Below are positions 49,493 through 63,364 of a stretch of DNA of 64,000 nucleotides, one piece after another. The stretch is from NCBI GenBank assembly GCA_009838915.1, contig VXQT01000032.1, positions 11,016 through 75,015 of the forward strand. The letters run 5' to 3'. The translations under genes and the position numbers were made by a program. Positions within the stretch are counted from its first letter, which is position 1. Each line of letters opens with the position of its first letter. Under the pieces are notes generated by a model. That model was given only the letters and a program-made list of their open reading frames with translations, had not been told where the DNA came from and did no database searches. Origin of the DNA: Chloroflexota bacterium (GTDB lineage Bacteria > Chloroflexota > Dehalococcoidia > Bin125).

Positions 49493-49502
49493 GACTCCAT
49501 GC

Positions 49503-50264
49503 CTACCAGATGGGCGCGCTAAAGAGATCGGGCAGGGCGGGTGCGAGCGCAATGCCGAGGAGCAGCGCGAGCACTTCGCTCAGCTCGTTGACCGCGCCGT
49601 AGGCGTCTCCGGTCATGCCGCCGAGCTTGCCCACGAGCCAGCGTCCCAGGCCCAGCGCCGCGACCGAGACCGCGCCGAGCAGGACGAGTCCGCCGGGTCC
49701 GAGGAAGACAACCGACGCCGAAACCGCCGTGAGCAACCCCATGGCAACGTGCCACGGTGGACCGTCCTGCTGCAGCGAGGCGCCTACGCCCTGGGCTCGC
49801 GCGTAGCGGAAGGCGACCATGGTCAGCAGCATGCCGAATCGTGAGAGGACGGGAAACGCCAGCAGGAGGCCGATGCGCGCGTCGTCGGGCGTGCTCGCGA
49901 GCAGGCTCCACTTCACCGCGATCAGCGCCGCGCCGCCGATCACGGCGAAGGCGCCAACGTGCGTGTCGCGCAGGATGCGCAGTCGATCCTCGGCCGTGTA
50001 TCCACCGAAGAGGCCGTCGCAGCAGTCGAGGAATCCCTCGGCGTGAAGCGCACGGGTCAGGATCAGCAGCGCGCAGAGCAACAGCGCCCCGATGACGATC
50101 GGCGGCAGTCCCTCGCGAGCGGCGGCGTCGAGTCCGACCAGGGCCGCGCCCAGGGCGAGTCCGACGAAAGGAAACCAGGCGCGCGCCGCGCTGCCCGGCG
50201 GCTCGCCGGCCGGCGTGACCGGCAGGATCGTGAGGAAGCCGAACGCGTGCCGCAGGCTGTTCAC
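49503..50264 (-). CDS. cobS: Adenosylcobinamide-GDP ribazoletransferase (cobalamin synthase)
   Basis: AFGFLTILPV motif and a polytopic membrane protein. GTG 50264 overlaps the cobT stop (GTGA). The ORF-track start at 50330 would overlap cobT by 70 nt. Confidence 0.85.
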   Translation of the reverse strand: MNSLRHAFGFLTILPVTPAGEPPGSAARAWFPFVGLALGAALVGLDAAAREGLPPIVIGALLLCALLILTRALHAEGFLDCCDGLFGGYTAEDRLRILRDTHVGAFAVIGGAALIAVKWSLLASTPDDARIGLLLAFPVLSRFGMLLTMVAFRYARAQGVGASLQQDGPPWHVAMGLLTAVSASVVFLGPGGLVLLGAVSVAALGLGRWLVGKLGGMTGDAYGAVNELSEVLALLLGIALAPALPDLFSAPIW

Positions 50265-51328
50265 TCGCGAGGCTCGTTCGTCGCGTCCGAGACTCCCGCC
50301 TCTCCGAACGTGGCCATCTCGTTGAGGCAAGCGGCCGCCGCATCCACGATGCCCATGGCCAGCAGTGCGCCCGATCCCTCGCCGAGCCGCATGTCGAGAT
50401 CAAGCAGCGGCTTCAGCCGTAACTGTTCCAGGGCGATGCCGTGTCCGCGCTCCGCCGAGCGATGGCCGGCAATCAGATAGTCGCGGCTCATGGGCACAAT
50501 CGACTGTGCGACGAGCGCAGCCGCAGCCGTGATGAATCCGTCCAGCACGACGGGCGTACGCCGCGAGGCCGCGCCCAGCACGACCCCGGCCAGGACGCCA
50601 ATCTCGAATCCGCCGAGTGTGCGCAGCACGTCCACACCGTCCGTCGGATCAGGCCGGTTAACGGCAATCGCCTGTTTGACCACGGCAACTTTCCTGGCAA
50701 GCTGTTCATCGCTGCGCGACGCGCCTCGCCCAGTGACGTTCTCTGCCGGACGTCCGCAGAGCACCGAGACTACTGCTGCGGCTGAGGTCGTGTTGGCGAT
50801 GCCCATGTCTCCGACGCCGATGATGTCGTCGTAGGCCGCCGCGGCGCGCGCGATCCTGGCGCCCGCGTCGAGCGCCGTTTCAGCCTGCTCCAGCGTCATC
50901 GCCGGGCCTTCAGCGATGTTCTGCGTTCCGAATCCCAGCCGCAGCGAGACCAGCTCGTCCGAGGGACCGACCGGCACGGCGACTCCGGCGTCGACGATGG
51001 TCAGATCGACGCCGGCTCGCTGCGCCAGCGTGTTCACGGCCGCGCCACCCTGGAGGTAGTTCTGCACCATCTGCGCAGTGACTTCTTGCGGATAGCTGCT
51101 CACGCCGCTCGCTGCGACGCCGTGATCGGCGGCAGCCAGGATCAGCTTCTTGCGATAGGCGCGCGGATGCTCGTCGCCTTGCATGCCGGCTAGCAGGATT
51201 GACAGCTCCTCCAACCTTCCCAGGCTGCCCGGCGGCTTCGTCAACTGCCGCTGGCGCTGCTCCGCCGCCGTCATGGCTTCGCGGTCGAGCGGTTCGATGA
51301 TCCGGAGGATGTCGTCGAGCATGATCAT
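50261..51328 (-). CDS. cobT: Nicotinate-nucleotide--dimethylbenzimidazole phosphoribosyltransferase
   Basis: LTKPPGSLGRLEEL and GDMGIANTTSAAA motifs. Confidence 0.9.
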   Translation of the reverse strand: MIMLDDILRIIEPLDREAMTAAEQRQRQLTKPPGSLGRLEELSILLAGMQGDEHPRAYRKKLILAAADHGVAASGVSSYPQEVTAQMVQNYLQGGAAVNTLAQRAGVDLTIVDAGVAVPVGPSDELVSLRLGFGTQNIAEGPAMTLEQAETALDAGARIARAAAAYDDIIGVGDMGIANTTSAAAVVSVLCGRPAENVTGRGASRSDEQLARKVAVVKQAIAVNRPDPTDGVDVLRTLGGFEIGVLAGVVLGAASRRTPVVLDGFITAAAALVAQSIVPMSRDYLIAGHRSAERGHGIALEQLRLKPLLDLDMRLGEGSGALLAMGIVDAAAACLNEMATFGEAGVSDATNEPRE

Positions 51329-51347
51329 CTCAAGAGACCCGCGCTCC

Positions 51348-51929
51348 CTAGAACTCGATGCCCGGCTGGGCCTTGATCCCCTGATCTTCGAACGGATGCT
51401 TGATCAGTGTCATCTCGGTAACCAGATCGGCGTAGTCGATCAGTTCCTGCGGCGCGTAACGGCCGGTGATGATCACGTGCATCGCCTCGGGACGCTGCTT
51501 GAGCGTCTCGATCACATCGCTCACGGCGACCCACTCGTAGTGCATCGCATAAGTGAACTCGTCGAGCACGATCAGGTCTTCCTCGCCCGCCAGGATCGCC
51601 TGCTTGCAGCGCTCCCACTGGGCGACGGCGAGGGCCGTCGTCTCGTCCATGTCCTTGGACAGCCAGGTGAAGCCGTCGCCCAACGACTCGATCGGCAGGC
51701 CGATCCGCTCGGCCGCGCGATGCTCGCCGAAGCGGGCGGTCGAGTGCTTGATGAACTGGAACATGCGCACGTTGAAGTCGCGGCCCCAGGCGCGGAAGAG
51801 CACGCCGAGCGCAGCCGTCGTCTTGCCCTTGCCGTCGCCTGTGTTGACGATCACCAGTCCGCGACGCACACGCGGACCTCGAGGCGCGGGCCGTTCCGGC
51901 GCCTGACCGGGATTCCTAGCTGATGACAC
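51348..51929 (-). CDS. cobO: Cob(I)yrinic acid a,c-diamide / cob(I)alamin adenosyltransferase
   Basis: GLVIVNTGDGKGKTTAALG P-loop and the LDEFTYA motif. Confidence 0.88.
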   Translation of the reverse strand: MSSARNPGQAPERPAPRGPRVRRGLVIVNTGDGKGKTTAALGVLFRAWGRDFNVRMFQFIKHSTARFGEHRAAERIGLPIESLGDGFTWLSKDMDETTALAVAQWERCKQAILAGEEDLIVLDEFTYAMHYEWVAVSDVIETLKQRPEAMHVIITGRYAPQELIDYADLVTEMTLIKHPFEDQGIKAQPGIEF

Positions 51930-52854
51930 CGGCGGCCTCGCTCTCGTCGCGGCGCGGAATGCCGGCTTCCCGCGCGGACGCAGTCTCGCCGACGCCGAGA
52001 TCCGCGTCGGGCTCCTCGTCCACTGCGGCGATCAGGCTGACCATCAGCGCACCCGTCGCGGGGTCGCGATGAATCTCGGAGCGAACGCCGAAGGCGTCTT
52101 CAATCGTCCCGGGCGTCAGCACCTCTGCCGCAATGCCCTCGGCCAGGACCCGACCCTCGGCCAGCACGACGAGCCGATCGCAGAAGCGGGCGGCGAGATT
52201 GAGATCGTGGATCGCGGCCACTGCCGTCAGTCCATCGTCAACGAGCCGGCGCACCAGCGACATGATCTTGAGCTGATGCAGAATGTCGAGGTTAGAGGTC
52301 GGCTCGTCCAGCAGTAGAACTCTCGGCTCCTGCGCCAGCGCGCGGGCGATGAAGACGCGCTGGCGCTCGCCGCCCGAGAGCGTGTCCAGCGTCCGTTCGG
52401 CAAAGCGATCGGTCTCGGTCAACCGCATCGCCTCGCCTGCGATCCGGTCGTCGTCTTCGCCCTCGACTTGCAGCCGTCCGAGGTGCGGATAGCGGCCCAT
52501 CAGCACCAGCTCGAACGTCGTGAATCCCTGTGTGTAGGGCGCGATCTGCGGGACCAGCGCCAACGTTGACGCGATCCGCTTCGCGCCCAGAGTGCGCAGA
52601 TCCTCGCCTTCAAGACTGATCGCCCCTTGCTCAATCTTGAGCACACTGGAGATGGCGCGCAACAGCGTCGACTTGCCCGCGCCGTTTGGACCGATCAGTC
52701 CCACGAACTGTCCGCGTCTGGCCTGCAGATCGACACGGTCGAGCAGCCGCTTGGCCTCGACGCTGAACGAGACCGCTTGCGCATCGATCGCGGACGGCGA
52801 CGCGCCGTTGGGCGTACTCACAGACCGTTCTCCCTTCGGCGGCGCGTCGGTCAC
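51916..52854 (-). CDS. ABC transporter ATP-binding protein (FecE/BtuD-like)
   Basis: Walker A GPNGAGKST, signature LSGGERQRV, Walker B LLLDEPTS. Downstream of a B12 riboswitch. Confidence 0.88.
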   Translation of the reverse strand: MTDAPPKGERSVSTPNGASPSAIDAQAVSFSVEAKRLLDRVDLQARRGQFVGLIGPNGAGKSTLLRAISSVLKIEQGAISLEGEDLRTLGAKRIASTLALVPQIAPYTQGFTTFELVLMGRYPHLGRLQVEGEDDDRIAGEAMRLTETDRFAERTLDTLSGGERQRVFIARALAQEPRVLLLDEPTSNLDILHQLKIMSLVRRLVDDGLTAVAAIHDLNLAARFCDRLVVLAEGRVLAEGIAAEVLTPGTIEDAFGVRSEIHRDPATGALMVSLIAAVDEEPDADLGVGETASAREAGIPRRDESEAAGVIS

Positions 52855-53939
52855 AGCGAATAGACCTGTCGCTTATTGCGGATCAGCAAGAAGATGAAGA
52901 ACGGCGCGCCGACGAACGCGGTCAGTACGCCCAGGCGGAACTCCGCCGGCGCGATGATCGTGCGCGCCACCGTGTCGACGGCGAGGACGAACACCGCGCC
53001 GCCCAGGGCGCTCATGGGAATCAAGACCCGATTGTCCGGGCCCAGCAGCAGACGCATGATGTGCGGAATGACCAAGCCGACGAATGCGATTACGCCGCTG
53101 ACGGCCACCGCAGCGCCGGTCGCCAGCGCGGCCGTGACCAGCAACAGCACCCGCATCCGACCGACCCGCACGCCCATCGAGCGCGCCTCGTCGTCACCCA
53201 GCATCAGCAAGTTCAGGTCGCGAGACAGCAGCAGCAGCAGGAACGCGCTGCCGAGAATCAGCGGCGACGCGATCCTGGCGTGGTCCCAGGACCGCGAGTC
53301 GAGTCCGCCCGCGAGCCAGAACAGCACTTCGCGCAGCGCCTCGTTGTCAGGCAGGAACAGAATGATCGCCGAAACCACGGCGCCGAGAAACGCGTTGATC
53401 GCGACGCCGGCCAGCAGCAATGTCGCCATCGAGAATCGGCCGCCGATCGCTGCGATCGCGTAGACGAGGAACGCGGCCGCGATCGCGCCGACGAAGGCGA
53501 ACACCGGCAGCGCCATCAGGAACAGCGCCGCCGCCCCCGTTGAGATCGCCACCACCGCCCCCAGCGCGCCGCCGGCCGAGACGCCGATGATCCCCGGATC
53601 GGCCATCGGATTGCGGAACAGCCCCTGCATCGTCGCGCCAGCCACGCCCAGGGCGATACCCACCGACGCTCCCACCACCAGCCGCGGCAGGCGGATCTGT
53701 TCAATGACCAGTTGCTCGGTGCGCCCGAAGTCGGGCACGTCGATCCCAAGTGGCGAGAACAGGATCCAGGCGACATGCGTGAGCGGAATCTCGACCGGAC
53801 CAAGGCCGAGCGAGACCAGCCCGACGACAATCACCAGCGCGAGCAGCGCCACAGTACCGACAGCAAGCCGAGTGCCAACGCCCATCCGGCGGTAACCGCG
53901 GAGCGTCGGTCGGCGAGACATCCAGGAGGGAGGCGACAT
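52851..53939 (-). CDS. FecCD-family ABC permease (BtuC-like)
   Basis: Polytopic FecCD pattern (RLPRLVVGASVGIALGVAGATMQGLFRNPMADPGIIGVS). The start is uncertain (ATG 53939 or 53921). The ORF-track start at 54062 abuts the riboswitch. Confidence 0.85.
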   Translation of the reverse strand: MSPPSWMSRRPTLRGYRRMGVGTRLAVGTVALLALVIVVGLVSLGLGPVEIPLTHVAWILFSPLGIDVPDFGRTEQLVIEQIRLPRLVVGASVGIALGVAGATMQGLFRNPMADPGIIGVSAGGALGAVVAISTGAAALFLMALPVFAFVGAIAAAFLVYAIAAIGGRFSMATLLLAGVAINAFLGAVVSAIILFLPDNEALREVLFWLAGGLDSRSWDHARIASPLILGSAFLLLLLSRDLNLLMLGDDEARSMGVRVGRMRVLLLVTAALATGAAVAVSGVIAFVGLVIPHIMRLLLGPDNRVLIPMSALGGAVFVLAVDTVARTIIAPAEFRLGVLTAFVGAPFFIFLLIRNKRQVYSL

Positions 53940-54067
53940 TCCGGCAACGGCCAACGAGAAACCTCCAGCGTCTCCGCTAGAGGTTGTGGGTTCGACCTGA
54001 CCGGCGCTTCCGCATTCGGAGCCCGGAGATCGAGGGACCTCTCTACTGCGGAGAGTTGTCACCTCAT

Positions 54068-54297: not shown

Positions 54298-55008
54298 TCA
54301 GTCGATGCCCAGCACGCCATAGTGACCATCGAGGATCAGACGGACCGAGACGTACACGCCCACCATCGGAATCAGGATCCAGACCGCGTTGGGGCCGAGC
54401 AGGTATATGTAGAAGTCTCGTGCCGTGAGCAACCGTCGCTTCTGTCCGACGAAGAAACTGACCAGGTAGAGCGAGGACGCATAGACCCACTGCCAGAAGA
54501 GCATCGCCCCGACGATGCCGGCAGCCATCGCCGGTATCACCCCCCCGGTGTAGGCCGCGTACAGCATCAACGTCGGCGCGATCGTCACGAACCCGTTGCC
54601 GATATCGATGTTGAATCCGTATGTGTTCCGATCCGCGTAGGCCGAGTCGAACATCGAGTAGGTCGCCCAGACTTCGGCCCAGACCGTGGGCGAGAACGCG
54701 CGCCGCAATGGCACCCGGCCAGTCAGGAACACGAGGGCGGGCGTGCGGCCGCCGTCACGCTGCCACTCACTCCAGTGCTCCGCGCGTCGCTCGATCTGGT
54801 CGCGGCGGAGGTACAGGCAAATCTCCCAGTAGCAGATCAGCAGATTGATTGAGAAGAACAGGCTGAACAGGAAGTGGAAGGCGTCCAGTCCGTCATGCAA
54901 CGCGTAGCGGACGGCGATCCCGGGCAGCGCCAGGAGCACGATTGCGAGCACGCCGAGCAAACCCGCGGGCGCGCTCCATCTTCCCGGTTGCTCGCTGGCT
55001 TCGGTCAA
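54298..55008 (-). CDS. EBP/EXPERA-like 4-TM membrane protein, candidate sterol C8(9)->C7 isomerase
   Basis: 236 aa and about 4-5 TM. WATYSMFDSAYADRN resembles the EBP segment WKEYAKGDSRY, and YIYLLGPNAVWILIPMV resembles the EBP segment FVFMNALWLVLPGV (human EBP recalled from memory). Divergent from the sterol operon. Confidence 0.45.
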   Translation of the reverse strand: MTEASEQPGRWSAPAGLLGVLAIVLLALPGIAVRYALHDGLDAFHFLFSLFFSINLLICYWEICLYLRRDQIERRAEHWSEWQRDGGRTPALVFLTGRVPLRRAFSPTVWAEVWATYSMFDSAYADRNTYGFNIDIGNGFVTIAPTLMLYAAYTGGVIPAMAAGIVGAMLFWQWVYASSLYLVSFFVGQKRRLLTARDFYIYLLGPNAVWILIPMVGVYVSVRLILDGHYGVLGID

Positions 55009-55189
55009 TCTGCCCGACCTCCCTCAGGCCGAAACTCAACCCCGCGCTCGCTGCCAAGCAGGTGTGCAGGATAGCGCTGCGCCATTGGCGCTCGACGAAC
55101 ATCTGCGTCGTCTTGAAGCTCCCAAACGCACGCCCTATTGTCTGGTACATATTCCACGGCGACGACCGAGCGCCCTCTCCGGGAGCCGA

Positions 55190-56284
55190 ATGGCCTCAGA
55201 CGCACTAGCCAGCCCAACCGACACTGCCGAACCTCCGGTGCTGCTGACCGGAGCCGCCGGACATGTCGGCGCCAATCTCGTGCGCCGCTTGCTTGACGAC
55301 GGCGTCCGAGTTCGAGTGCTGCTCAGGCCGGAGGACAACAACGAGTCCGTGGAGGGACTGGACGTCGAGCGCGCCTATGGCGACATTCGTGACCTGGAAG
55401 CCACCAGGCAGGCGATCGCCGGTTGTCACCGCGTCTATCACACCGCCGCGCTCGTCTCGACCATCGACGGCGACGACGCCCATCGCCGCGACGTGTTCGA
55501 ATCGAACGTGATCGGCACCCGCAACGTGCTCCAGGCCGCACGGGAAATGGAAGCTGGACGCGTCGTGGTTACCGGCTCGTTCAGCGCTGTCGGATACGAC
55601 CTGGACGACTCCTCTATTCCGACGAGAGAAACGATGCCGTTCTATCCGATGGAACGCACGATGCCCTACGAGCGCAGCAAGGCGATGGTCGAAACCGAAT
55701 GCTGGCATGCAGCGGCGGGCGGACAGGACGTGCTAATCGCCACGTCGTGCGCGGTTGTCGGCGGCAACGATTTCTTTCCGTCCAGAATGGGGAGAACGCT
55801 GTGCGACTTCGCCAATCGCAAGCTCCATGCCTATGTCGACGGCGGGTTCGAGTTCGTCGCGGCGCATGACATCGCAGAGGGCCACGTGCTCTGCATGGAG
55901 CGCGGAAGGTCAGGGCAGAAGTACATCTTCAGCTCCGAGTATCAGACGATTTCCGACATGCTGGATCACTTCCAGGCGGTCACAGGTGTCAAGCGTCCGC
56001 GTCGACAGATACCGCTCGGACTGATGCTCCCGTTCGCCGAGCTGTCGAGCCGCATGCTCAGCCGCTTCTGGCCGAGTTATCCGCAGCGCTTCACCCCCGG
56101 CGCGATCCGTCTGTTGCAGCAATGTCGACACGCCGACACGAGCAAGGCGAAAGAGGAACTCGGGTTCCAGCCGACCACGATTCGCAGCGCAGTCCAGGAT
56201 GCCTACGCGTTTCACTATCGGCGCGAGGCGATCACCAATCCGAACGCCATGCGCCCGGAAGCGCTGACTGCGGGAAGCGAATAG
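55190..56284 (+). CDS. Extended SDR, 3-beta-HSD/NAD-dependent epimerase family (SdmB-like candidate sterol C-4 decarboxylating dehydrogenase)
   Basis: LLTGAAGHVGANLV Rossmann motif and catalytic YERSK (YxxxK). First gene of the sterol operon. Start taken at MASDAL (ATG 55190). Confidence 0.6.
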   Translation: MASDALASPTDTAEPPVLLTGAAGHVGANLVRRLLDDGVRVRVLLRPEDNNESVEGLDVERAYGDIRDLEATRQAIAGCHRVYHTAALVSTIDGDDAHRRDVFESNVIGTRNVLQAAREMEAGRVVVTGSFSAVGYDLDDSSIPTRETMPFYPMERTMPYERSKAMVETECWHAAAGGQDVLIATSCAVVGGNDFFPSRMGRTLCDFANRKLHAYVDGGFEFVAAHDIAEGHVLCMERGRSGQKYIFSSEYQTISDMLDHFQAVTGVKRPRRQIPLGLMLPFAELSSRMLSRFWPSYPQRFTPGAIRLLQQCRHADTSKAKEELGFQPTTIRSAVQDAYAFHYRREAITNPNAMRPEALTAGSE

Positions 56285-56339
56285 CTATGCCGTCTCGCAT
56301 GGGTCCGGTTGCTTCCGCCGAAACGGATAAGCTCGCAGT

Positions 56340-57449
56340 ATGAGCATCGAGACGCAGCCCCGCACGGACGGTCCACCGACGGCGGAAGACGCCGCCAATC
56401 TGCGCCAGCAAGCACGGGCGGTGGGGATGAACCCCGACTATTGGTACGCCGTCGAGGAAGTGCGCAACGTCAAGCCGGGCTCGGTGACAGAAGTCGTCTT
56501 CTGGAAACAGTCGATCGCCCTCTTCCGCTCCGAGGACGGGTCGTTTCACGCGATGGAGAATCGCTGCCTGCATCGCCAGGTCAAACTCTCGCTCGGCGAA
56601 GTTGAGGGCTGCAGGCTCGTCTGCGGCTACCACGGCTGGGGATACGACGAGGAAGGGCACGTTGTCGACATTCCGGACCTGTTCGGACGCACCAAGGTCC
56701 CGAGGCTCTCGGTGCGTTCGTATCCCGTACAGGTTCGTTACGGGTTGGTCTGGATCTTTCCCGGCGATCCGGCGCTGGCCGAGGAACGGCGGATTCCCGA
56801 GATTCCCGAACTCGAGGGCCCCGGACGCTGGGCTTGCGTGCCACTCAGGTTCGATCTCACCGCCCATCACTCGATCATCATCGACAACGTCAGCGACTTT
56901 TCCCACGCCTACCTGCACCGACAGTATCGACCGTTCGACGGCGCCACGCTGACCCGCCATGAGACGATCGGCGACAACGTGCACCTCGCCTACGAGACGC
57001 GCGTGGGCCGCGGACGCATCTCCGGCAAGTTCGTCGATCACGGCCGCCTCAACACCAATCACATGGAACTCTGTTACGAGTATCCCTATCAGCGCTCCAA
57101 CACCGACGACGAGATCAAGCACTGGCTCTTCGTGCTGCCGATCGACGAACGCACCACGCGGACGTTCTTCCTCTTCTACTTCCAGTCGCTCAAAATTCCG
57201 CTGTTACCGGTCCGCATTCCCCGCTGGGCAATGACCACAGTGTTGCGCCTGGCGAACCGGATGCTGATCGGGCCGCTGCTCTCACAGGACCGCTGGGCGG
57301 TGGAGGCGGAGCAGGCCGGCTATGAGCACAACTGGGACGCTCCGCCGATCGAGGTCAACCCGGTCGTGCGCTCATTCCAACAGGTGACGGTGCGCAAGTG
57401 GCGCGAACACCTGGAGCGCGAGGCGGCCGTGAACGCGAACGATGCCTGA
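56340..57449 (+). CDS. Rieske [2Fe-2S] non-heme iron oxygenase (SdmA-like candidate sterol C-4 methyl oxidase)
   Basis: Rieske ligands CLH (56565-56573) and CGYH (56622-56633). The catalytic domain has DNVSDFSHAYLH. Sits between the SDR and sterol reductase genes. Confidence 0.6.
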   Translation: MSIETQPRTDGPPTAEDAANLRQQARAVGMNPDYWYAVEEVRNVKPGSVTEVVFWKQSIALFRSEDGSFHAMENRCLHRQVKLSLGEVEGCRLVCGYHGWGYDEEGHVVDIPDLFGRTKVPRLSVRSYPVQVRYGLVWIFPGDPALAEERRIPEIPELEGPGRWACVPLRFDLTAHHSIIIDNVSDFSHAYLHRQYRPFDGATLTRHETIGDNVHLAYETRVGRGRISGKFVDHGRLNTNHMELCYEYPYQRSNTDDEIKHWLFVLPIDERTTRTFFLFYFQSLKIPLLPVRIPRWAMTTVLRLANRMLIGPLLSQDRWAVEAEQAGYEHNWDAPPIEVNPVVRSFQQVTVRKWREHLEREAAVNANDA

Positions 57450-58539
57450 CATCCCCTCGGCCTGGACGTCGGTGTCCGGCCAGCATGTGCTCGAAGCTGC
57501 GGCGCTCTTCGCTGGGTTCGTCGCCATCTTGCTGTTGGGCTCGAAGGTGCTGCCGGGACGCAAGCAGGATGGACGGCCGGACCCCGAAGGCGTCACACGC
57601 ACCTACCATCTCAACGGTCTCACGCTGTTCCTGGTCGTCATGCTGGTTGCGGTGCTGGGCGAAGTGTTCAATCTGTTCTCGCTCTCGATCTTGCACAGCC
57701 ACTTCGCCGAGCTGTTCATCGTCGCCAACGTTTTCGCCTGTGCGATGTCGCTGGGACTGTACTGGCAAGCGTCGCGCACCGAAGAGCAGTCACCCGGATT
57801 GCTGCGAGGCATCTTCTTCGGCCGACAGCTCAATCCGACCTGGTTCGGAGTCGATCTGAAACTGTTCAGCTATCGACCGTCCTTGATCGGCCTGGCCCTG
57901 TTCAACGTCTCATTCGCTGTCGTTCAGTGGGACGCGAACGGCGGGCTCTCGTTACAGATGATTCTCTACCAGGCCTTCACCCTGCTGTACGTATTCAACT
58001 ACTTCCAGTTTGAGTATGGAATGATCTACACGTGGGACATTGTCGCCGAGCGGTTCGGCTGGATGCTGGCCTGGGGCGATTATGTGCTGGTGCCGTTCTT
58101 TTACTGTCTCGGCGGCTGGTGGGTGCTTGAGGCAACGGGCTCATTGCACAGCGTCGCGGCGGCGGCGATCTGCGTACTGTTCGTTGTGGGATTCACGATG
58201 TTTCGCGGCGCAAACGAACAGAAGCATCGATTCAAGCAGGACGCCGAGGCATCGATCTGGGGACGGCCGGCCGAATCGCTCGAAGGACGCCTATTGGTAT
58301 CCGGGTTCTGGGGCCTAGGCCGACATCTGAACTACACCGGTGAGATCTGCGTGTACTTTGCCTGGGCCCTGACCACCAGCTTCGCCTCGTGGATACCGTT
58401 CGCCTTGCCCGTGTGGCTGACAGCGCTTCTCTGGCATCGATCGCGGCGCGATGACCGACGCTGCCGCCTCAAGTACGGCGAGTTGTGGCAGCGCTACACG
58501 CAGCGGGTGCCCCACGCCTTGATTCCGCGCGTCTACTAG
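57442..58539 (+). CDS. ERG4/ERG24-family sterol reductase (probable sterol C-14 reductase)
   Basis: Polytopic. GANEQKHRFK, GLGRHLNYTGEI and LWHRSRRDDRRCRLKYGELWQRY are hallmark motifs of eukaryote-type sterol reductases. 8-nt overlap with the upstream gene. Confidence 0.8.
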   Translation: MPDIPSAWTSVSGQHVLEAAALFAGFVAILLLGSKVLPGRKQDGRPDPEGVTRTYHLNGLTLFLVVMLVAVLGEVFNLFSLSILHSHFAELFIVANVFACAMSLGLYWQASRTEEQSPGLLRGIFFGRQLNPTWFGVDLKLFSYRPSLIGLALFNVSFAVVQWDANGGLSLQMILYQAFTLLYVFNYFQFEYGMIYTWDIVAERFGWMLAWGDYVLVPFFYCLGGWWVLEATGSLHSVAAAAICVLFVVGFTMFRGANEQKHRFKQDAEASIWGRPAESLEGRLLVSGFWGLGRHLNYTGEICVYFAWALTTSFASWIPFALPVWLTALLWHRSRRDDRRCRLKYGELWQRYTQRVPHALIPRVY

Positions 58540-58544
58540 ACTCG

Positions 58545-59960
58545 ATGCCTGAGGATCTTCCGAGGACTGCGATGGTTCAACTGCGCGATGCTCCCACGGC
58601 GACACCGGAAGCCCGACCGATCCCGGTGCTCGGTGGCGGCGCGCCCCTGCTTGGCCACCTCTGGGAGTTCCAGCGAGATCCCGTAGCGATGCTCGAGCGT
58701 GGACGCCGCGAGTTGGGCGATCTGTACCAGTTCAGCCTCGGACCGCGAAAGTTCGCGCTCTTTTCCGGACCCGACGCGCACGACGCCTTCTTCAGCGCGC
58801 CCGAAGATCAACTGAATGCCAAGGCGGTCTACCAGTTCACGGTCCCTATCTTCGGCCGCGGCGTCGCCTACGACGTGGCGCCGCAGATTATGGACGAACA
58901 GCTGGGATTCCTGTATCCGGCGCTGCGCGAAGCCGCGATGCAGCAGTTCGCCCGGATCATGTTCGAGGAGACCTCGCTGCTCGCCGACTCGATGGGCGAC
59001 TCGGGCGTGATCGACCTGCCCGAGACGATGAATCGGCTCACGGTCAACATCGCCAGCCGCAGCCTGATCGGACAGGAAGTCCGCGACCAGGTCGACGCCG
59101 GTTTCGCCGACGCGTATCACGATCTGCAGAAGGGCATCAACACGCTGGGGTTCTTTCTGCCTCGGTTGCCCACGCCGGCGCACCGCAGCCGCGACCGCGC
59201 GCGCCGGCGGGTGGCCGACCTCTTCGGCCGGATTATGAGCGCGCGGCGACGCGCGGAGCATCGTCCCGACGATTTCATGCAGTCGCTCATGGAGGCCGCC
59301 TACAGCGACGGCCGTTCCCTGAGCGACGATGAGATCACCGGCATTCTGCTGACGGTCCTGTTCGCCGGCCAGCACACAAGCGCCGTGCTCGCTACCTGGA
59401 CGGGCCTGGAGCTGCTTAGGGCGTCCTCCTACTCGGACCGGGTCAGGGACGAGACGCGCGACATCTACGGCGGTTCGGGCGAAATGAACCTTGAAGGCCT
59501 GAAGCAGCAGGTGACCACGGAACATGCCGTGCGCGAGTGCGAGCGACTGCATCCCCCGTTGATCATCCTGATCCGCAAGGTGCTCAGGACGATGCGCTAC
59601 GGCGATTACACAGTGCCGGCTGGCGCAATGGCCATGGTCTCGCCGGCGGTCTCCCATCGGCTGCCGCACCTGTTCGATGAGCCCGACCGCTTCAATCCCG
59701 ACCGCTTCGCTCCGCCGGCCCGCGAGGACAAGCAGCATCCCTACGCCTTGATCGGATTCGGCGGAGGCAAGCACCGCTGCATGGGTAAGCACTTCGCCGA
59801 GATGCAGGTCAAAGCGATCTGGACCGTGCTGCTGGATCGCTTCGAGTTCAGTCTCGACACCGAGTTTCCCTCGCCCAACTACGGCAGTTGGGTGACGGGT
59901 CCGGTCACCCCCTGCCGGCTCCGCTATCGGCGCCGCTCGCAGGGAAGCGTGTTCCGGTGA
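58545..59960 (+). CDS. cyp51: Cytochrome P450, CYP51-type sterol 14-alpha-demethylase
   Basis: Heme loop FGGGKHRCMG (59757-59786) and I-helix FAGQHTS. The N-terminal GHLWEFQRDPVAMLERGRRELGDLYQF...YQFTVPIFGRGVAYD parallels M. tuberculosis CYP51 as I recall it. Start at ATG 58545, with 58572 as an alternative. Confidence 0.8.
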   Translation: MPEDLPRTAMVQLRDAPTATPEARPIPVLGGGAPLLGHLWEFQRDPVAMLERGRRELGDLYQFSLGPRKFALFSGPDAHDAFFSAPEDQLNAKAVYQFTVPIFGRGVAYDVAPQIMDEQLGFLYPALREAAMQQFARIMFEETSLLADSMGDSGVIDLPETMNRLTVNIASRSLIGQEVRDQVDAGFADAYHDLQKGINTLGFFLPRLPTPAHRSRDRARRRVADLFGRIMSARRRAEHRPDDFMQSLMEAAYSDGRSLSDDEITGILLTVLFAGQHTSAVLATWTGLELLRASSYSDRVRDETRDIYGGSGEMNLEGLKQQVTTEHAVRECERLHPPLIILIRKVLRTMRYGDYTVPAGAMAMVSPAVSHRLPHLFDEPDRFNPDRFAPPAREDKQHPYALIGFGGGKHRCMGKHFAEMQVKAIWTVLLDRFEFSLDTEFPSPNYGSWVTGPVTPCRLRYRRRSQGSVFR

Positions 59961-62900
59961 CGGATGGCGATATCGGCCGTTATGACGTAGCGATCGTCGG
60001 CGCCGGGCCGGTCGGCAGCGTCTGCGCGATTGCTCACGCGCGCAAGGGCTACCGGGTCGCGCTGTTCGAGGCCAATCCGGCGGCGTCCAAGCGGCTGGCC
60101 GGCGAGTGGCTGCATCCTCCCGCCGTGCGGGTCCTGAGTGAACTCGGCATCTCCGTCGAGGGCGAGGTGCCAAGCACCTCGGGCGAAGGCTTCGCCGTGT
60201 TTCCCGAGGACGGCCGGGAGCCGATCGTCCTCCCATATGCCGACGGATCGCGCAGCCTGGTCTGCGAACACGCTGCCCTTGTCTCGCACCTGCGCCAGGT
60301 CGCCGGCAACGAGCCGGGCGTCGATCTGCGAGTCCACGCTCGCGTGCGCAGCGTCGAGGACGGGCGGATCACGTTCATGCAGGATGGCGTGGAACACACC
60401 GCTCTCGCTGAGCGCATCGTCGGTGCGGACGGGCGGTCGTCCGTCGTCCGACGATCCCTGGGGCTGAGCACGCAAACAAGAACCTGTTCGCGGATGATCG
60501 GGCTGACGCTCAAGGAGGTGGACTTGCCCCTGGAGGGCTACGGCCACGTCCTCAGCGGCGCGCCCGGTCCAATGCTGATCTACCGGCTGAACGAAGACAG
60601 TATCCGTGCGGTCATCGATATCCCACTTGACCTCTCGCCCCACGAGTGGAAGCGCCTGCTCTCCGACTCGTACGCACGTTGGGTTCCGGAGCCGCTGCGC
60701 CCCGCATTCCTCGATGCATGTACGGACGAGCGATTTGACGCCGCCGCCAATGTCGTCAGCCCGCGACTCACGTACGGAACCTCCCGCCGCGTGCTGATCG
60801 GCGACGCGGCGGGACACTACCACCCGCTGACCGCGACCGGGATGACACTGGGCTTCGGCGACGCGTTCGAACTGGCGGAGGGCGAGGAGTTCAGCGACTT
60901 CCGAAACCACCGATTCGAAGCCACGCGTGTGCCCGAGCTTCTGGCAATGGGCATCTACGAGGCCTTTGCCGATCAGCGGGTCGAAGGGACCGCCCTGCGC
61001 CAGGCAATGTACAGCCGATGGCGAGCCAGTTCCGGTGTGCGGGGCCGCACCATGCGGCTGCTCGGTTGTGAAGACACGAGGATTCGCAGCTTGAGTCGCG
61101 AGTTCTCGACGACGGTGCTCTGGGCGCTCCGGGCGAGACTGCCAAAGTCGTTCAGTCCCAACGCCTGGCGCGAGTATCGCGATGTCGCTCGGGGATTGAG
61201 CAATCGCCTGGCCTGGCTGCTGCGGGCCGCATGGCACCTCTACAGCGTCAGACGCGCAGGCGGGACCGGAACCGAACGCCCCACCGAGGCGCTCGCCCGC
61301 GCCTTCTTGACCTCAATGCCTTCAGGATCGCCGGCCCCGGATCGCACCGAGCAGCCTGGCGAGATCGAAGTAGACGCGCCCGATGCGAGCTTGGCCGTCC
61401 AGCGCGCCGTCGAGCGGCTGCTCAACCTCCAGACGGAGGACGGCGGCTGGGAAGGCGAGATGGTCTGGTGCCCGATGATCACGGCCCAATGGGTGCTGCT
61501 CCAGCACATCCTTGGTCGCCCGATCGACCCCGACCGTCGGCGCCGCCTGCTGCGCTACTTCGAGCAGTCGCGACTGGCCGATGGCCAATGGGGTCTGCAC
61601 GATCACTCCGCTCCGCACCTGTTCGTCACAACCCTGGTCTATGTCGCCGTCCGGGTGTTGGGCATCGAGCGGGACGATCCGTTGATTGCACCGGCGCTCC
61701 GCTTCATCCAGGCGGAAGGCGCGCTGGGCATCCCGAGCTGGGGCAAGTTCTGGCTGGCGCTGCTCAATCTCTACGACTGGGACGGACTCCACCCGGTACT
61801 GCCCGAGCTGTGGAGCTTGCCCCGCCGACTGCCGCTGCATCCCTCCAAGTGGTACTGCCACACGCGACTGATCTACATGGCCATGGCCGCGATCTTTGCA
61901 CGTCGATTCCAGGCGGCCGTGACGCCGTTGATCGGTTCCCTGCGCGAGGAGCTGTACCCCCAGGGCTACGAGACCGTCGACTTTCCTGCCGCCCGCAGCC
62001 GACTGCGCACGGCCGACCTGTTCGCCGCGCCGACGGTCTGGCTGCGAACTCTGTATCGCGGCGCGCAGCTTGTCCAGCGATTCCACCTCCCCCGCCTGCG
62101 CGAGCGGTCGGTCGACGCAATGGTTGAACAGATCAAATGGGAGTTGAACACCACCGACCACACCAGCATCTCGCCGGTCAGCGGACTGCTCAACATCCTC
62201 GCGCTGTGGTTGCACGATCCCGAGGATCCCGATGCGCAATGCGCCCTGGAGCAGGCCGAGCTCTGGTTCTGGGAAGACGAACAGCGCGGCGCGCGCCTGA
62301 CCGGCGCAAAGAGCGCCTCATGGGACAGCGGATTCGCGCTCCAGGCGCTCGCGACCGCAACCCACATCGAGGGCGTCCCCGACGCGCTTGAACGCGGACG
62401 CGAGTACCTGGGCCGCCAACAGATTGTCGCCAGTTTCCCCGGCTACCGCGAGGCCTATCGCAACGATCCGCAAGGCGGCTGGTGTTTCGCCGAGCGATGG
62501 CATGGCTGGCCCGTATCCGACTGCACGGCCGAAGCCGTGCTCGGCATCGTCGCCGCCGATCGCGCGTCGGGCGCAGATCCGGCCGGCACGGACGCGCTGC
62601 GCGACGGGGTGCGCTTCATGCTGCGCGCGCAGAATCGCGACGGCGGCTTCGGCAGCTACGAGGCGCAGCGCTCACGCTTCGATCTCGAACGCATCAATCC
62701 CGCCGAGATGTTCGGCGAGTCGATGACCGAACACTCGTACGTCGAGTGCGCCGCCTCGTGCATGGCGGCGATCGCCGCGTGGCGCAGGGCGGCGACTGCC
62801 GCCGGCCGCGAGCACGCGCCGAACGCCGTCGACGCGGATGCCGAGCGCGCCCTCGAGCGCGCCGACGCCTGGTTGCGCCGCACTCAAGGTGACGACGGCT

Positions 62901-63364
62901 CGTGGCGCGGCGTCTGGGGCGTGCAGTACATCTACGGCACCTTCTTCGGCATCCGAGGCCTGCTCGCCGGTGGTGCACCACCTGGAGATCCGGCGCTGCG
63001 ATCCGCCTGCCGCTGGCTGCTGGATCGGCAGCGTGACGACGGCGGCTGGGGGGAGCACCACAGCGGCTGCCTGAGCGGACAGTACGTCCCGCACGACGAG
63101 AGCCAGGTGATCCAGACCGCCTGGGCGCTAATCGCATTGCTCGAAGCGGGCGACGAACACTGGAGCGCCATCGCGCGAGGCGCGCGCTTCCTGGTCGATA
63201 GTCAATGCGAGGACGGCGGCTGGGCGCGCCAGGACATGGCCGGCGTCTTCTTCCGCACCGCCCTGCTCGACTACGTCCTCTACCGCCAGTACTTCCCGCT
63301 GCACGCGCTCGGACTCTACGAAGCCCGGCGAACTGCCCGCCACGTTGGATTGAACGACGGATAG
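59957..63364 (+). CDS. Fusion protein: squalene monooxygenase (N-terminal) + oxidosqualene cyclase (C-terminal)
   Basis: Single uninterrupted frame. The N-terminal half has YDVAIVGAGPVGS, GEWLHPPA, VGADGRSS and IGDAAGHYHPLTATGMT (squalene epoxidase pattern). The C-terminal half has QW-type repeats (LQTEDGGW, RAQNRDGGFG, RRTQGDDGSW, DRQRDDGGW, SQCEDGGW) and VSDCTAE at 62519-62533. GTG 59957 overlaps the cyp51 stop (GTGA). Confidence 0.8.
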   Translation: MTDGDIGRYDVAIVGAGPVGSVCAIAHARKGYRVALFEANPAASKRLAGEWLHPPAVRVLSELGISVEGEVPSTSGEGFAVFPEDGREPIVLPYADGSRSLVCEHAALVSHLRQVAGNEPGVDLRVHARVRSVEDGRITFMQDGVEHTALAERIVGADGRSSVVRRSLGLSTQTRTCSRMIGLTLKEVDLPLEGYGHVLSGAPGPMLIYRLNEDSIRAVIDIPLDLSPHEWKRLLSDSYARWVPEPLRPAFLDACTDERFDAAANVVSPRLTYGTSRRVLIGDAAGHYHPLTATGMTLGFGDAFELAEGEEFSDFRNHRFEATRVPELLAMGIYEAFADQRVEGTALRQAMYSRWRASSGVRGRTMRLLGCEDTRIRSLSREFSTTVLWALRARLPKSFSPNAWREYRDVARGLSNRLAWLLRAAWHLYSVRRAGGTGTERPTEALARAFLTSMPSGSPAPDRTEQPGEIEVDAPDASLAVQRAVERLLNLQTEDGGWEGEMVWCPMITAQWVLLQHILGRPIDPDRRRRLLRYFEQSRLADGQWGLHDHSAPHLFVTTLVYVAVRVLGIERDDPLIAPALRFIQAEGALGIPSWGKFWLALLNLYDWDGLHPVLPELWSLPRRLPLHPSKWYCHTRLIYMAMAAIFARRFQAAVTPLIGSLREELYPQGYETVDFPAARSRLRTADLFAAPTVWLRTLYRGAQLVQRFHLPRLRERSVDAMVEQIKWELNTTDHTSISPVSGLLNILALWLHDPEDPDAQCALEQAELWFWEDEQRGARLTGAKSASWDSGFALQALATATHIEGVPDALERGREYLGRQQIVASFPGYREAYRNDPQGGWCFAERWHGWPVSDCTAEAVLGIVAADRASGADPAGTDALRDGVRFMLRAQNRDGGFGSYEAQRSRFDLERINPAEMFGESMTEHSYVECAASCMAAIAAWRRAATAAGREHAPNAVDADAERALERADAWLRRTQGDDGSWRGVWGVQYIYGTFFGIRGLLAGGAPPGDPALRSACRWLLDRQRDDGGWGEHHSGCLSGQYVPHDESQVIQTAWALIALLEAGDEHWSAIARGARFLVDSQCEDGGWARQDMAGVFFRTALLDYVLYRQYFPLHALGLYEARRTARHVGLNDG

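What the first reader, a model, noticed from the sequence alone, without database searches (positions are those of the whole stretch)
54298..63364. Near-complete sterol biosynthesis gene cluster in a high-GC bacterial genome
Six adjacent genes cover almost every post-squalene step. These are squalene epoxidation plus oxidosqualene cyclisation (one ORF, VSDCTAE catalytic motif), CYP51 14-alpha-demethylation, ERG24-type C-14 reduction, a Rieske oxygenase plus extended-SDR pair of the kind shown to do C-4 demethylation in Methylococcus (SdmA/SdmB), and a divergent EBP-like candidate C-8 isomerase. The five plus-strand genes are joined by an 8-nt overlap, a GTGA overlap, or gaps of about 5 to 55 nt, so they look like one operon. 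Bacterial sterol synthesis is phylogenetically sparse. Clusters that also carry the reductase and an isomerase candidate predict a sterol processed well beyond lanosterol or cycloartenol. Squalene synthase is not in this window.
Basis: partly seen in the sequence, partly recalled or inferred. Interest (0 to 1): 0.85.

Follow-up and report, generated by a model that had tools for sequence, protein, structure and literature searches.

The report
Sponge-symbiont bacterial sterol synthesis operon
This is a real and intact six-gene bacterial cluster for making a demethylated sterol from squalene, but the same cluster is already described in many sponge-symbiont bacteria; the one new point is that its unannotated sixth gene looks like a very divergent relative of the animal sterol isomerase EBP.

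Summary
The window carries, in order:
- a divergent 236-aa membrane protein
- SdmB-like SDR
- SdmA-like Rieske oxygenase
- an ERG24-type sterol reductase
- CYP51
- a fused squalene epoxidase/oxidosqualene cyclase

The five plus-strand genes are joined by a 55-nt gap, an 8-nt overlap, a 5-nt gap and a GTGA overlap. All cofactor and catalytic motifs are intact.

The host is not a rare sterol producer. It is a Chloroflexota (Dehalococcoidia) sponge-symbiont MAG. The same collinear five-gene core is found in 62 of the 80 related loci I examined, across about ten phyla. It is published as the msb locus (Mohanty 2020) and as "clusters of steroid genes" (Kelly 2022), and it is used in Brown 2023.

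The sixth gene has no Pfam or NCBIfam match. It belongs to a conserved family that travels with the cluster in different positions. A high-confidence model of it matches only human EBP (TM 0.59–0.64). Eight of the eleven mutagenesis-defined EBP catalytic positions align; six are identical.

The predicted product is a C-14 and C-4 demethylated Δ8 or Δ7 sterol derived from lanosterol. The window holds no sterol methyltransferase and no squalene synthase. No step is shown biochemically.

The cluster is known. The EBP-like assignment appears new.

The parts
54298..55008 (-). 236-aa five-helix membrane protein with no family annotation. It is a divergent EBP/EXPERA-fold protein and a candidate sterol delta8-delta7 isomerase. 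It is transcribed divergently from the operon.
   Evidence: There is no significant Pfam or NCBIfam match. EXPERA/EBP is the only recurrent weak Pfam match: 10/20 and 11/58 family members, best E 0.0029. hhalign of the family against vertebrate EBP gives probability 83.6 %, E 8.2e-6. The AF2 model has pLDDT 94.7. Foldseek's top two hits are human EBP at TM 0.59/0.64 and 0.54/0.61; every other hit is below 0.25. A homologue lies within 10 kb of the cluster in 32 of 66 loci.
55009..55189 (.). 181-bp divergent intergenic region between the EBP-like gene and the operon; the presumed promoter region.
   Evidence: No sigma-70-type consensus was found. That scan is uninformative for Chloroflexota.
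55190..56284 (+). SdmB-like extended SDR (364 aa), candidate 3beta-hydroxysteroid-4-carboxylate dehydrogenase/decarboxylase for C-4 demethylation.
   Evidence: NF052578 SdmB scores 299.9 bits (cut-off 600); the next best is HpnA at 236 bits. Pfam Epimerase and 3Beta_HSD match. GxxGxxG is at residue 21 and YxxxK at residue 160. The start agrees with the public gene calls.
56340..57449 (+). SdmA-like Rieske oxygenase (369 aa), candidate 4beta-methylsterol monooxygenase.
   Evidence: NF052579 SdmA scores 405.9 bits over the full length (cut-off 600); the next Rieske family scores 35 bits. Pfam Rieske and VanA_C match. The CxH...CxxH Rieske motif is at residues 76-98 and an iron motif at residue 183.
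57442..58539 (+). ERG4/ERG24-family sterol reductase (365 aa), predicted delta14-reductase.
   Evidence: PF01222 matches at E 1.7e-71. The best solved relative is MaSR1 delta14-sterol reductase 4quv, E 6.5e-65. The signature LLVSGFWGLGRHLNYTGE is present. The start overlaps the SdmA stop by 8 nt.
58545..59960 (+). CYP51 sterol 14alpha-demethylase (471 aa), with no fused ferredoxin.
   Evidence: The best PDB matches are Methylococcus capsulatus CYP51 structures 7jj1, 6mcw and 6mi0 (E about 3e-106). All of the top 56 matches are CYP51. The I-helix AGQHTS and the heme loop FGGGKHRCMG are present.
59957..63364 (+). Fused squalene epoxidase (about residues 1-400) and oxidosqualene cyclase (about residues 470-1135). 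It is predicted to be a lanosterol synthase.
   Evidence: Pfam SE, FAD_binding_3 and SQHop_cyclase_N/C all match. TIGR03463 scores 740 bits. Human OSC 1w6k scores E 9e-123, SHC scores 8e-59, and human squalene monooxygenase 6c6n scores 1e-21. GAGPVG is at residue 15 and WPVSDCTAE is present. Val lies at the position of human V453. The product is identical to a protein in GCA_009845245.1.

Best explanation
The region is one horizontally mobile sterol-biosynthesis module carried by a sponge-associated Chloroflexota (Dehalococcoidia) bacterium. Squalene is made elsewhere in the genome.

Predicted route (inferred from homology; no step is shown biochemically):
1. The N-terminal FAD domain of the fusion protein epoxidises squalene. 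The C-terminal domain then cyclises the product to lanosterol. The acid is the Asp of VSDCTAE, and Val sits at the position of human V453. The fusion probably hands oxidosqualene directly from one active site to the other.
2. CYP51 removes the 14alpha-methyl group and leaves a delta8,14-diene.
3. The ERG24-type reductase saturates delta14.
4. The Rieske oxygenase (SdmA-like) and the SDR (SdmB-like) remove one or both C-4 methyl groups.
5. The divergently transcribed EBP-fold membrane protein moves the delta8 double bond to delta7.

The expected end product is a 4-methyl or 4-desmethyl cholesta-8,24- or -7,24-dienol. The side chain is not alkylated, because this copy lacks the sterol methyltransferase that follows the cyclase gene in many sister loci.

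What is shown directly: gene content, order, coupling of the reading frames, intact motifs, and family or fold membership.
For: Domain and family matches support every gene. All cofactor and catalytic motifs are intact. The five plus-strand genes are translationally coupled or nearly so.

All five core genes are present in 66 of the 80 related loci examined, and 62 of these are collinear. They come from Dehalococcoidia, Nitrospirales, Binatia, Acidimicrobiales, Alpha- and Gammaproteobacteria, Acidobacteriota and others.

The published descriptions give the same order. Mohanty 2020 reports msbA-E (PMC7074536). Kelly 2022 reports the CSGs, with purifying selection (omega 0.13-0.26) and HGT (PMC9531527).

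V453 predicts lanosterol in the bacterial OSCs tested so far (PMC4919349).

For the sixth gene:
- The family is conserved at 47-85 % identity and linked to the cluster in two different arrangements.
- The fold match is to human EBP alone.
- The profile match gives probability 83.6 %.
- W114, Y117, D121, Y124, D135, N138, N207 and W210 align with EBP W101, Y104, D108, Y111, E122, T125, N193 and W196. These are 8 of the 11 residues that alanine scanning found to determine EBP activity (PMC4263179).
Against: - There are no biochemical or lipid data for this organism or for any member of this cluster type.
- The SdmA and SdmB matches are below NCBIfam's equivalog cut-offs, so substrate and regiochemistry are not certain.
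- Mohanty et al. proposed a different role for the pair, C-23 oxidation.
- The cyclase has His at human position 449, a cycloartenol-synthase-type residue, together with Val453. Product purity is therefore uncertain.
- The EBP-like protein fails the Pfam EXPERA threshold (11 bits against 25.7).
- The family has no invariant or near-invariant His, and no counterpart of EBP H76/E80 could be placed. R110 is not kept either.
- EXPERA proteins such as TMEM97 bind sterols without known catalysis.
- The cluster encodes no redox partners for CYP51, the Rieske oxygenase or the epoxidase.
Confidence: 0.8

Rival explanations
1. The five core enzymes make the sterol as described, but the 236-aa EBP-fold protein is not a delta8-delta7 isomerase. 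It could be a sterol-binding or sterol-handling membrane protein like TMEM97. Or it could catalyse a different nuclear rearrangement, for example formation of the 8(14) double bond seen in some sponge sterols.
For: No counterpart of EBP His76/Glu80 could be placed, and R110 is not conserved. The Pfam threshold is not met. The wider family includes actinobacterial members (Haloechinothrix, Nocardia) whose neighbourhood holds no sterol-synthesis genes. Only about half of the cluster loci have the gene within 10 kb. 8(14)-sterols occur in sponges, and an isomerase route to them has been suggested for eukaryotes (PMC13277303).
Against: Six of the eleven catalytic determinants of EBP are identical. 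E122 is replaced by Asp and T125 by Asn. The whole five-helix fold superposes on EBP. The gene moves with the cluster in two arrangements across phyla. Its divergence tracks that of the cyclase (r = 0.92).
Confidence: 0.3
2. The cluster supplies the aglycone of a specialised metabolite, a sarasinoside-type steroid glycoside, rather than a membrane sterol. In that case the Rieske/SDR pair performs other redox tailoring, such as C-23 oxidation, instead of C-4 demethylation.
For: Mohanty et al. proposed this for the homologous msb locus of a Melophlus symbiont (PMC7074536). SdmA/SdmB membership is below the equivalog cut-offs.
Against: No glycosyltransferase or other tailoring gene lies within 54 kb upstream or 10 kb downstream of the cluster here. 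The Rieske protein matches the SdmA model end to end at 406 bits, against 35 bits for any other Rieske family. The cluster occurs in many sponges that are not known for sarasinosides.
Confidence: 0.12
3. The cluster is not bacterial. It would be sponge (eukaryotic) DNA mis-assembled or mis-binned into a bacterial MAG.
For: Several of the enzymes (ERG24, CYP51, OSC, SE, EBP fold) are typical of eukaryotes. The source is a host-associated metagenome.
Against: The genes are intron-free and joined by overlapping stop and start codons. They are contiguous with bacterial cobalamin-salvage, ABC-transporter and restriction-modification genes on several independently assembled contigs. G+C is 0.649, against 0.665 for the rest of the window. 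The same cluster lies inside closed multi-megabase bacterial chromosomes. C-4 demethylation is of the bacterial SdmAB type.
Confidence: 0.01

Closest known systems
msb locus (msbA-E) of a gammaproteobacterial symbiont of the sponge Melophlus sarasinorum (Mohanty et al. 2020, PMC7074536)
   Same: Gene content and order are identical: NAD(P) oxidoreductase, Rieske oxygenase, membrane sterol reductase, CYP51, and a bifunctional squalene epoxidase/cyclase with the lanosterol-type valine. Squalene synthase also lies elsewhere in the genome.
   Different: The host phylum differs (Chloroflexota here). The msbF-type sterol methyltransferase is absent from the window. The msb paper stated that the flanking genes have no resemblance to sterol genes. 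Here a divergent EBP-fold gene sits next to the operon.
'Clusters of steroid genes' (CSGs) in Ircinia sponge MAGs (Kelly et al. 2022, PMC9531527)
   Same: The core is ERG24-CYP51-LSS, about 5.9 kb, preceded on the same strand by a 'DFR' (the SDR) and a 'hypothetical protein' (the Rieske gene). It is reported in 11 classes, including Dehalococcoidia, with HGT and purifying selection. The window's proteins occur on contigs of sponge-metagenome assemblies.
   Different: Kelly et al. usually found SMT or squalene synthase on the opposite strand at the 3' end. Here the 3' neighbour is proline dehydrogenase. They did not annotate the fusion, the SdmAB identity or the EBP-like gene.
Methylococcaceae sterol pathway (SdmAB, CYP51, MaSR1; Lee et al. 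2018, 2023, 2026)
   Same: The closest characterised or solved relatives of four of the enzymes come from this pathway: M. capsulatus CYP51, M. alcaliphilum MaSR1, and SdmA and SdmB. Methylotuvimicrobium also pairs a C-14 reductase with a C-8 isomerase.
   Different: In methanotrophs the epoxidase and cyclase are separate genes and CYP51 is fused to a ferredoxin. Most methanotrophs use the NTF2-type 8,14-Bsr rather than an ERG24-type reductase. Their C-8 isomerase is a BLAST-recognisable homologue, unlike the gene here.
Human EBP (3beta-hydroxysteroid delta8,delta7-isomerase; PDB 6oht, 8w0r), EXPERA superfamily
   Same: The five-helix fold superposes over about 216 columns (TM 0.59-0.64). W101, Y104, D108, Y111, N193 and W196 are identical in the aligned family, and E122 is replaced by Asp.
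   Different: Identity is only about 13-17 %, below Pfam's threshold. There is an extra helical insertion of about 30 residues after TM2. No counterpart of H76/E80 could be placed. R110 and T125 are not conserved.

Membership tests
Squalene epoxidase (Pfam SE PF08491, FAD monooxygenase) | SE domain above the Pfam gathering score, and an N-terminal FAD-binding GxGxxG | tested here: met
   SE scores 78 bits against a cut-off of 20.1. Human squalene monooxygenase 6c6n scores E 1e-21; the next FAD monooxygenase scores 5.7e-7. GAGPVG is at residue 15.
Oxidosqualene cyclase (as opposed to squalene-hopene cyclase) | Catalytic Asp in a DCTAE motif, and closer to OSC than to SHC | tested here: met
   VSDCTAE aligns on human D455. 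Human OSC scores 414 bits against 203 for SHC. TIGR01787 scores 503 bits, above its cut-off. TIGR03463 osq_cycl scores 740 bits, below its 851 cut-off; hopene_cyclase scores 276 bits.
Lanosterol synthase versus cycloartenol synthase | Val (lanosterol) or Ile (cycloartenol) at human position 453; secondary positions 381 and 449 | tested here: inconclusive
   Val lies at position 453, which predicted lanosterol in all bacterial OSCs tested by Wei et al. 2016. But His lies at 449, as in cycloartenol synthases, and Ala at 381. The product has not been measured.
CYP51 sterol 14alpha-demethylase | Groups with CYP51 rather than with other P450 families, and has CYP51 I-helix and heme-loop signatures | tested here: met
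   The top 56 matches among solved structures are all CYP51. The best scores 359 bits; the first non-CYP51 scores 171 bits. AGQHTS and FGGGKHRCMG are present. No phylogeny was built.
ERG4/ERG24 sterol reductase, delta14-specific | PF01222 above threshold, the C-terminal NADPH/sterol signature, and delta14 specificity | tested here: met
   PF01222 scores 241.7 bits against a cut-off of 27. The best solved relative is the delta14-reductase MaSR1, E 6.5e-65. The signature LLVSGFWGLGRHLNYTGE is present. Family membership is met. Delta14 specificity is inferred from the nearest relative and from adjacency to CYP51; it was not tested.
SdmA (4beta-methylsterol monooxygenase, NF052579) | Score at or above the NCBIfam equivalog cut-off, plus a Rieske [2Fe-2S] centre and a non-heme iron domain | tested here: inconclusive
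   It scores 405.9 bits over the full length, but the cut-off is 600. Rieske and VanA_C domains are present, and CxH...CxxH is intact. It is a clear best match but not an equivalog by the curated threshold.
SdmB (sterol demethylase SDR, NF052578) | Score at or above the NCBIfam equivalog cut-off, plus the extended-SDR GxxGxxG and YxxxK motifs | tested here: inconclusive
   It scores 299.9 bits against a cut-off of 600. HpnA is a close second at 236 bits. Both motifs are present. The gene is adjacent to the SdmA-like gene in 62 collinear loci.
EBP / EXPERA (PF05241) | Pfam domain above the gathering score | tested here: not met
   It scores 11 bits, E 0.58, against a cut-off of 25.7. The best family member reaches E 0.0029.
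EBP / EXPERA (PF05241) | EBP fold, with four to five transmembrane helices enclosing a sterol pocket | tested here: met
   The AF2 model has pLDDT 94.7 and pTM 0.91. Human EBP chains 8w0r_A and 6oht_A are the only structural matches (TM 0.54-0.64, probability 1.00). The next hit has TM below 0.25.
EBP / EXPERA (PF05241) | The eleven catalytic determinants from alanine scanning: H76, E80, W101, Y104, D108, R110, Y111, E122, T125, N193, W196 | tested here: inconclusive
   Six are identical (W, Y, D, Y, N, W). E122 is replaced by Asp and T125 by Asn. R110 is lost. H76 and E80 could not be aligned, and the family has no conserved His.
Sponge-symbiont steroid gene cluster (msb / CSG) | Collinear SDR, Rieske, ERG24, CYP51 and fused SE-OSC genes, occurring in sponge-associated bacterial MAGs | tested here: met
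   The order is identical to msbA-E and to the CSG description. 62 collinear relatives were found in sponge-type MAGs. Identical proteins occur on contigs from GCA_009845245.1 and two ENA metagenome assemblies.

The most novel reading that the evidence does not exclude
The 236-aa protein and its roughly 400 close relatives may form an unrecognised, very divergent bacterial branch of the EBP/EXPERA superfamily. This branch would act as the nuclear double-bond isomerase (delta8 to delta7, or possibly to 8(14)) of the sponge-symbiont sterol pathway, and it spreads horizontally with the cluster across many phyla. If so, uncultured sponge symbionts process sterols one step further than the published cluster annotations imply. 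EBP-type isomerases would also not be a purely eukaryotic invention, as was inferred by Hoshino and Gaucher 2021.
Probability: 0.5. Interest if true: 0.55.

Novelty: new member of a known kind. Interest (0 to 1): 0.35.

Why it matters
Sterols of sponge symbionts bear on a live dispute: whether sterane fossils such as 24-isopropylcholestane record early animals or bacteria (Brown et al. 2023). Knowing exactly which nuclear modifications these bacterial clusters can perform decides which sterol skeletons the symbionts could supply.

This window adds little to the known picture of the core cluster. It does provide a clean, methyltransferase-free Dehalococcoidia example. It also provides a testable candidate for a missing step, a membrane isomerase that standard annotation does not see. 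Finally, the wide cross-phylum spread of one collinear module is a clear case of habitat-specific horizontal transfer.

Tried and rejected
- **Myxobacterial origin.** I first suspected this from the high G+C and the complex sterol pathway. The homologue searches point to Chloroflexota/Dehalococcoidia sponge MAGs instead.
- **Sequence search of the 236-aa family against PDB sequences.** This gave nothing useful; EBP was not found.
- **First AF2 model.** It was built from 20 close homologues and was poor (pLDDT 67), giving only a weak EBP hit (TM 0.40). A more diverse 58-sequence alignment was needed.
- **hhalign against a single EBP sequence.** This gave only 8 % and then 51 % probability. An EBP family alignment was needed.
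- **MAFFT co-alignment of the two families.** It did not give a credible alignment of TM2, so H76/E80 equivalence stays open.
- **Promoter and terminator scan.** It was uninformative.
- **Search of the window for a sterol methyltransferase, an amine-oxidase-type FAD protein or a second sterol P450 like those next to the cluster in Binatia.** None was found.
- **Search for squalene synthase in the window.** None was found.
- **Genomic context of a distant family member in Haloechinothrix.** It showed no sterol genes.

Full report
**What is in the sequence**

The region 54298-63364 holds six ORFs.

Pfam and NCBIfam scans give the following on the plus strand, in order:
- An extended SDR. It matches Epimerase and 3Beta_HSD. 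Its best NCBIfam model is SdmB at 299.9 bits.
- A Rieske oxygenase with a VanA_C catalytic domain. Its best model is SdmA at 405.9 bits over the full length.
- An ERG4/ERG24 sterol reductase (E 1.7e-71).
- A cytochrome P450.
- One long protein with a squalene-epoxidase domain followed by both squalene/oxidosqualene cyclase domains. It matches TIGR03463 oxidosqualene cyclase at 740 bits.

The sixth ORF lies on the minus strand and is divergent from the operon. It encodes 236 aa and has no significant family match.

Start codons and junctions were read directly. They agree with the public gene calls on identical contigs:
- SdmB-like: 55190-56284.
- SdmA-like: 56340-57449, after a 55-nt gap.
- Reductase: 57442-58539, with an 8-nt ATGCCTGA overlap.
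- CYP51: 58545-59960, after a 5-nt gap.
- Fusion protein: 59957-63364, with a GTGA overlap.

**Testing each assignment**

I compared each protein with the sequences of solved structures.
- The P450's best 56 matches are all CYP51. Methylococcus capsulatus CYP51 is on top (359 bits), and the first non-CYP51 P450 scores 171 bits.
- The reductase's best relative is MaSR1, the delta14-sterol reductase of Methylomicrobium alcaliphilum (E 6.5e-65).
- The cyclase half matches human lanosterol synthase at 414 bits and squalene-hopene cyclase at 203 bits. VSDCTAE lies on the catalytic Asp455 motif. The N-terminal half matches human squalene monooxygenase (E 1e-21).

Cofactor and catalytic motifs are intact in all five enzymes:
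- FAD GxGxxG
- DCTAE
- Rieske CxH...CxxH
- SDR GxxGxxG and YxxxK
- P450 AGQHTS and the heme cysteine loop
- the sterol-reductase signature

The cyclase has Val at human position 453. That residue correlated fully with lanosterol production in the bacterial cyclases tested by Wei et al. 2016. However, it has His at 449 and Ala at 381, so the product call is a prediction.

The SdmA and SdmB matches are clear best hits. They are below NCBIfam's 600-bit equivalog cut-offs.

**Whose genome, and how common**

The homologue search shows that the window's fusion protein exists in public data. Its nearest relatives (81-85 % identity) are Chloroflexota MAGs.

A scan of one genome per GTDB species found 352 loci that encode a relative.
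- The closest are Dehalococcoidia MAGs.
- At 59-65 % identity come Nitrospirales, Binatia, Acidimicrobiales, Alpha- and Gammaproteobacteria (including Candidatus Porisulfidus), Bryobacterales, Vicinamibacterales, Thermodesulfobacteriota and others.
- Most carry sponge-metagenome-style names.

The identical protein lies on contigs of GCA_009845245.1 and of two ENA metagenome assemblies, with the same neighbours as in the window.

A tblastn synteny analysis of the 80 best loci gave these counts:
- 66 loci have all five core genes.
- 62 have them in the same order and on the same strand.

So the host is not the myxobacterium I first suspected. It is a sponge-associated Chloroflexota bacterium. 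The cluster is a widely shared module.

**What the literature already says**

- Mohanty et al. 2020 described the msb locus of a gammaproteobacterial Melophlus symbiont. Its genes are msbA (oxidoreductase), msbB (Rieske), msbC (sterol reductase), msbD (lanosterol demethylase) and msbE (bifunctional epoxidase/cyclase with the lanosterol-type valine). This is the same order as here.
- Kelly et al. 2022 described 'clusters of steroid genes', ERG24-CYP51-LSS. They are preceded by a 'DFR' and a hypothetical protein and followed by SMT or squalene synthase. The clusters were found in 115 of 537 Ircinia MAGs from 11 classes, including Dehalococcoidia. They show purifying selection and gene trees that indicate horizontal transfer.
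- Brown et al. 2023 used such clusters, with sdmA and sdmB named, to argue that symbionts could make side-chain-alkylated sterols.

The core of the finding is therefore known. The claim of phylogenetic rarity does not apply to this habitat.

**The sixth gene**

This is the part that is not in those papers. Mohanty et al. stated that the genes flanking msb show no resemblance to sterol genes.

Conservation and linkage:
- The 236-aa protein has about 400 close relatives, all unannotated and without Pfam domains.
- The wider family has 331 representatives at 50 % clustering.
- A homologue lies within 10 kb of the cluster in 32 of the 66 complete loci.
- It occupies two different arrangements. In 15 Dehalococcoidia loci it is divergent, upstream of the SDR gene. 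In 17 loci of other phyla it is downstream of the cyclase, on either strand.
- Its divergence tracks that of the cyclase (r = 0.92).

It is thus a real gene linked to the pathway.

Evidence for what it is:
- Pfam's EXPERA/EBP model is the only family hit repeatedly, though weakly, by family members: 10 of 20 and 11 of 58, best E 0.0029.
- A profile of 58 diverse members against a profile of 23 vertebrate EBPs gives hhalign probability 83.6 % and E 8.2e-6 over 113 columns. I checked the human EBP query sequence against PDB 6oht.
- With the diverse alignment, AlphaFold2 gives a confident model, pLDDT 94.7 and pTM 0.91.
- Foldseek against the PDB returns human EBP as the top two hits (TM 0.59/0.64 and 0.54/0.61 over about 216 columns). 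Nothing else is above TM 0.25.

Sanchez-Pulido and Ponting 2014 list eleven residues that alanine scanning found to determine EBP activity. The hhalign alignment and an independent MAFFT alignment treat these residues as follows:
- Family-conserved W114, Y117, D121, Y124, N207 and W210 fall on W101, Y104, D108, Y111, N193 and W196.
- D135 falls on E122.
- N138 falls on T125.
- R110 is not kept.
- H76 and E80 could not be aligned.

The family has a near-invariant Glu (E62) in the second helix, but no invariant or near-invariant His.

I conclude that the protein is a true but very divergent EBP-fold protein. A sterol double-bond isomerase is its most likely role. TMEM97-like sterol binding, or a different isomerisation, are live alternatives.

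**How it most likely works**

Squalene is made elsewhere. No squalene synthase is in the window.

1. The fusion protein epoxidises and cyclises squalene to lanosterol.
2. CYP51 removes the 14alpha-methyl group.
3. The ERG24-type reductase saturates delta14, giving a delta8 sterol. This is unlike the NTF2-type 8,14-Bsr of most methanotrophs, which gives 8(14)-sterols (Lee et al. 2026).
4. The SdmAB-like pair removes one or both C-4 methyl groups. Both outcomes are known for characterised homologues.
5. The EBP-like protein moves delta8 to delta7.

All steps are inferred from homology. None has been shown for this cluster type. No redox partners are encoded nearby.

**Boundaries and local peculiarities**

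- Upstream of the cluster are cobalamin-salvage and ABC-transport genes (CobU, CobC-type phosphatase, CobT, CobO, FecCD).
- Downstream are proline dehydrogenase and, beyond the window, a restriction-modification system.
- Many sister Dehalococcoidia loci have a sterol methyltransferase convergent with the cyclase gene. This copy does not, so an unalkylated side chain is predicted.
- The cluster's G+C (0.649) is slightly below that of the rest of the window (0.665). The reductase gene is lowest at 0.606.

**Verdict**

The cluster is a further member of a published kind, so its novelty and interest are much lower than proposed. The residual interest lies in the EBP-fold family, which appears undescribed in the literature I could search.

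Noticed in passing
L002, L004, L008, L010-L012, L015, L016, L031, L044 at about 13.4-14.4 kb (minus strand); absent from the window, L001, L003, L006, L007, L013 and L080: Many sister Dehalococcoidia loci carry a sterol C-24 methyltransferase (Sterol_MT_C) convergent with, and immediately after, the SE-OSC gene. The window's lineage has proline dehydrogenase there instead. The methyltransferase has therefore been gained or lost within the class.
   Followed up: partly
L019 13.5-23.3 kb (Binatia); similar in L024, L025 and L028: In Binatia the module is rearranged and enlarged: ERG24-CYP51-SE/OSC, then the EBP-like gene, then two or three tandem sterol methyltransferases, then SdmA and SdmB on the opposite strand, then an amine-oxidase-type FAD protein and a second P450. 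The last two recur next to the cluster in Nitrospirales (L029, L038). Their role is unknown.
   Followed up: partly
L084 8001-8720 (Haloechinothrix, JACCKD010000003.1); protein P0256: Distant members of the EBP-like family occur in the actinobacteria Haloechinothrix and Nocardia wallacei. In Haloechinothrix the gene overlaps the end of a TetR gene and has no sterol-synthesis genes nearby. Haloechinothrix aidingensis is also named in Lee et al. 2026 as carrying an 8,14-sterol reductase homologue, so the family may act on sterols there too.
   Followed up: partly
window 57442-58539: The ERG24-type reductase is short, 365 aa against 427 aa for MaSR1. The alignment starts at MaSR1 residue 71, so the first about 50-70 residues (N-terminal helices) are missing. 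The short form is conserved in all related loci.
   Followed up: no
L014, L017, L023, L027, L045, L046, L054, L074, L078: In some genomes (Tepidiformaceae, Anaerolineaceae, Acidimicrobiales, Rariloculaceae and others) the fused SE-OSC gene stands without the other four core genes within 10 kb. The fusion also exists outside the five-gene module.
   Followed up: no
L005 and L009 (both from MAG SB0665_bin_35, VXTH01): One MAG holds two different copies of the cluster, at 79 % and 73 % identity to the window's cyclase. This is either two clusters in one genome or a mixed bin.
   Followed up: no
L026 14.8-18.7 kb: In a gammaproteobacterial locus the EBP-like gene is separated from the cluster by integrase/transposase genes (rve_3, HTH_32) and is followed by another one. 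This fits the mobility of the accessory genes.
   Followed up: no
window 48272-54062 (minus strand): A cobalamin lower-ligand/salvage block lies here: CobU, a histidine-phosphatase (CobC-type), a 294-aa ORF that gave no Pfam hit (public calls on identical contigs place CobS there), CobT (DBI_PRT), CobO, and an ABC ATPase with a FecCD permease. It directly abuts the sterol cluster.
   Followed up: no
window 7753-13802 (plus strand): Two overlapping genes of about 1000 aa encode a PD-(D/E)XK nuclease and a UvrD-type helicase-nuclease, an AddAB/AdnAB-like pair.
   Followed up: no
window 42096-43976 (minus strand): An aldehyde:ferredoxin oxidoreductase (AFOR_N/AFOR_C, tungsten-type enzyme family) is encoded in the same genome as an oxygen-dependent sterol pathway.
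   Followed up: no
L081 15.7-18.2 kb (beyond the window's 3' end): A restriction-modification pair (RE_XamI with an Eco57I-type methylase) and, in some assemblies, an IS21-type IstB gene lie a few kb downstream of the cluster.
   Followed up: no
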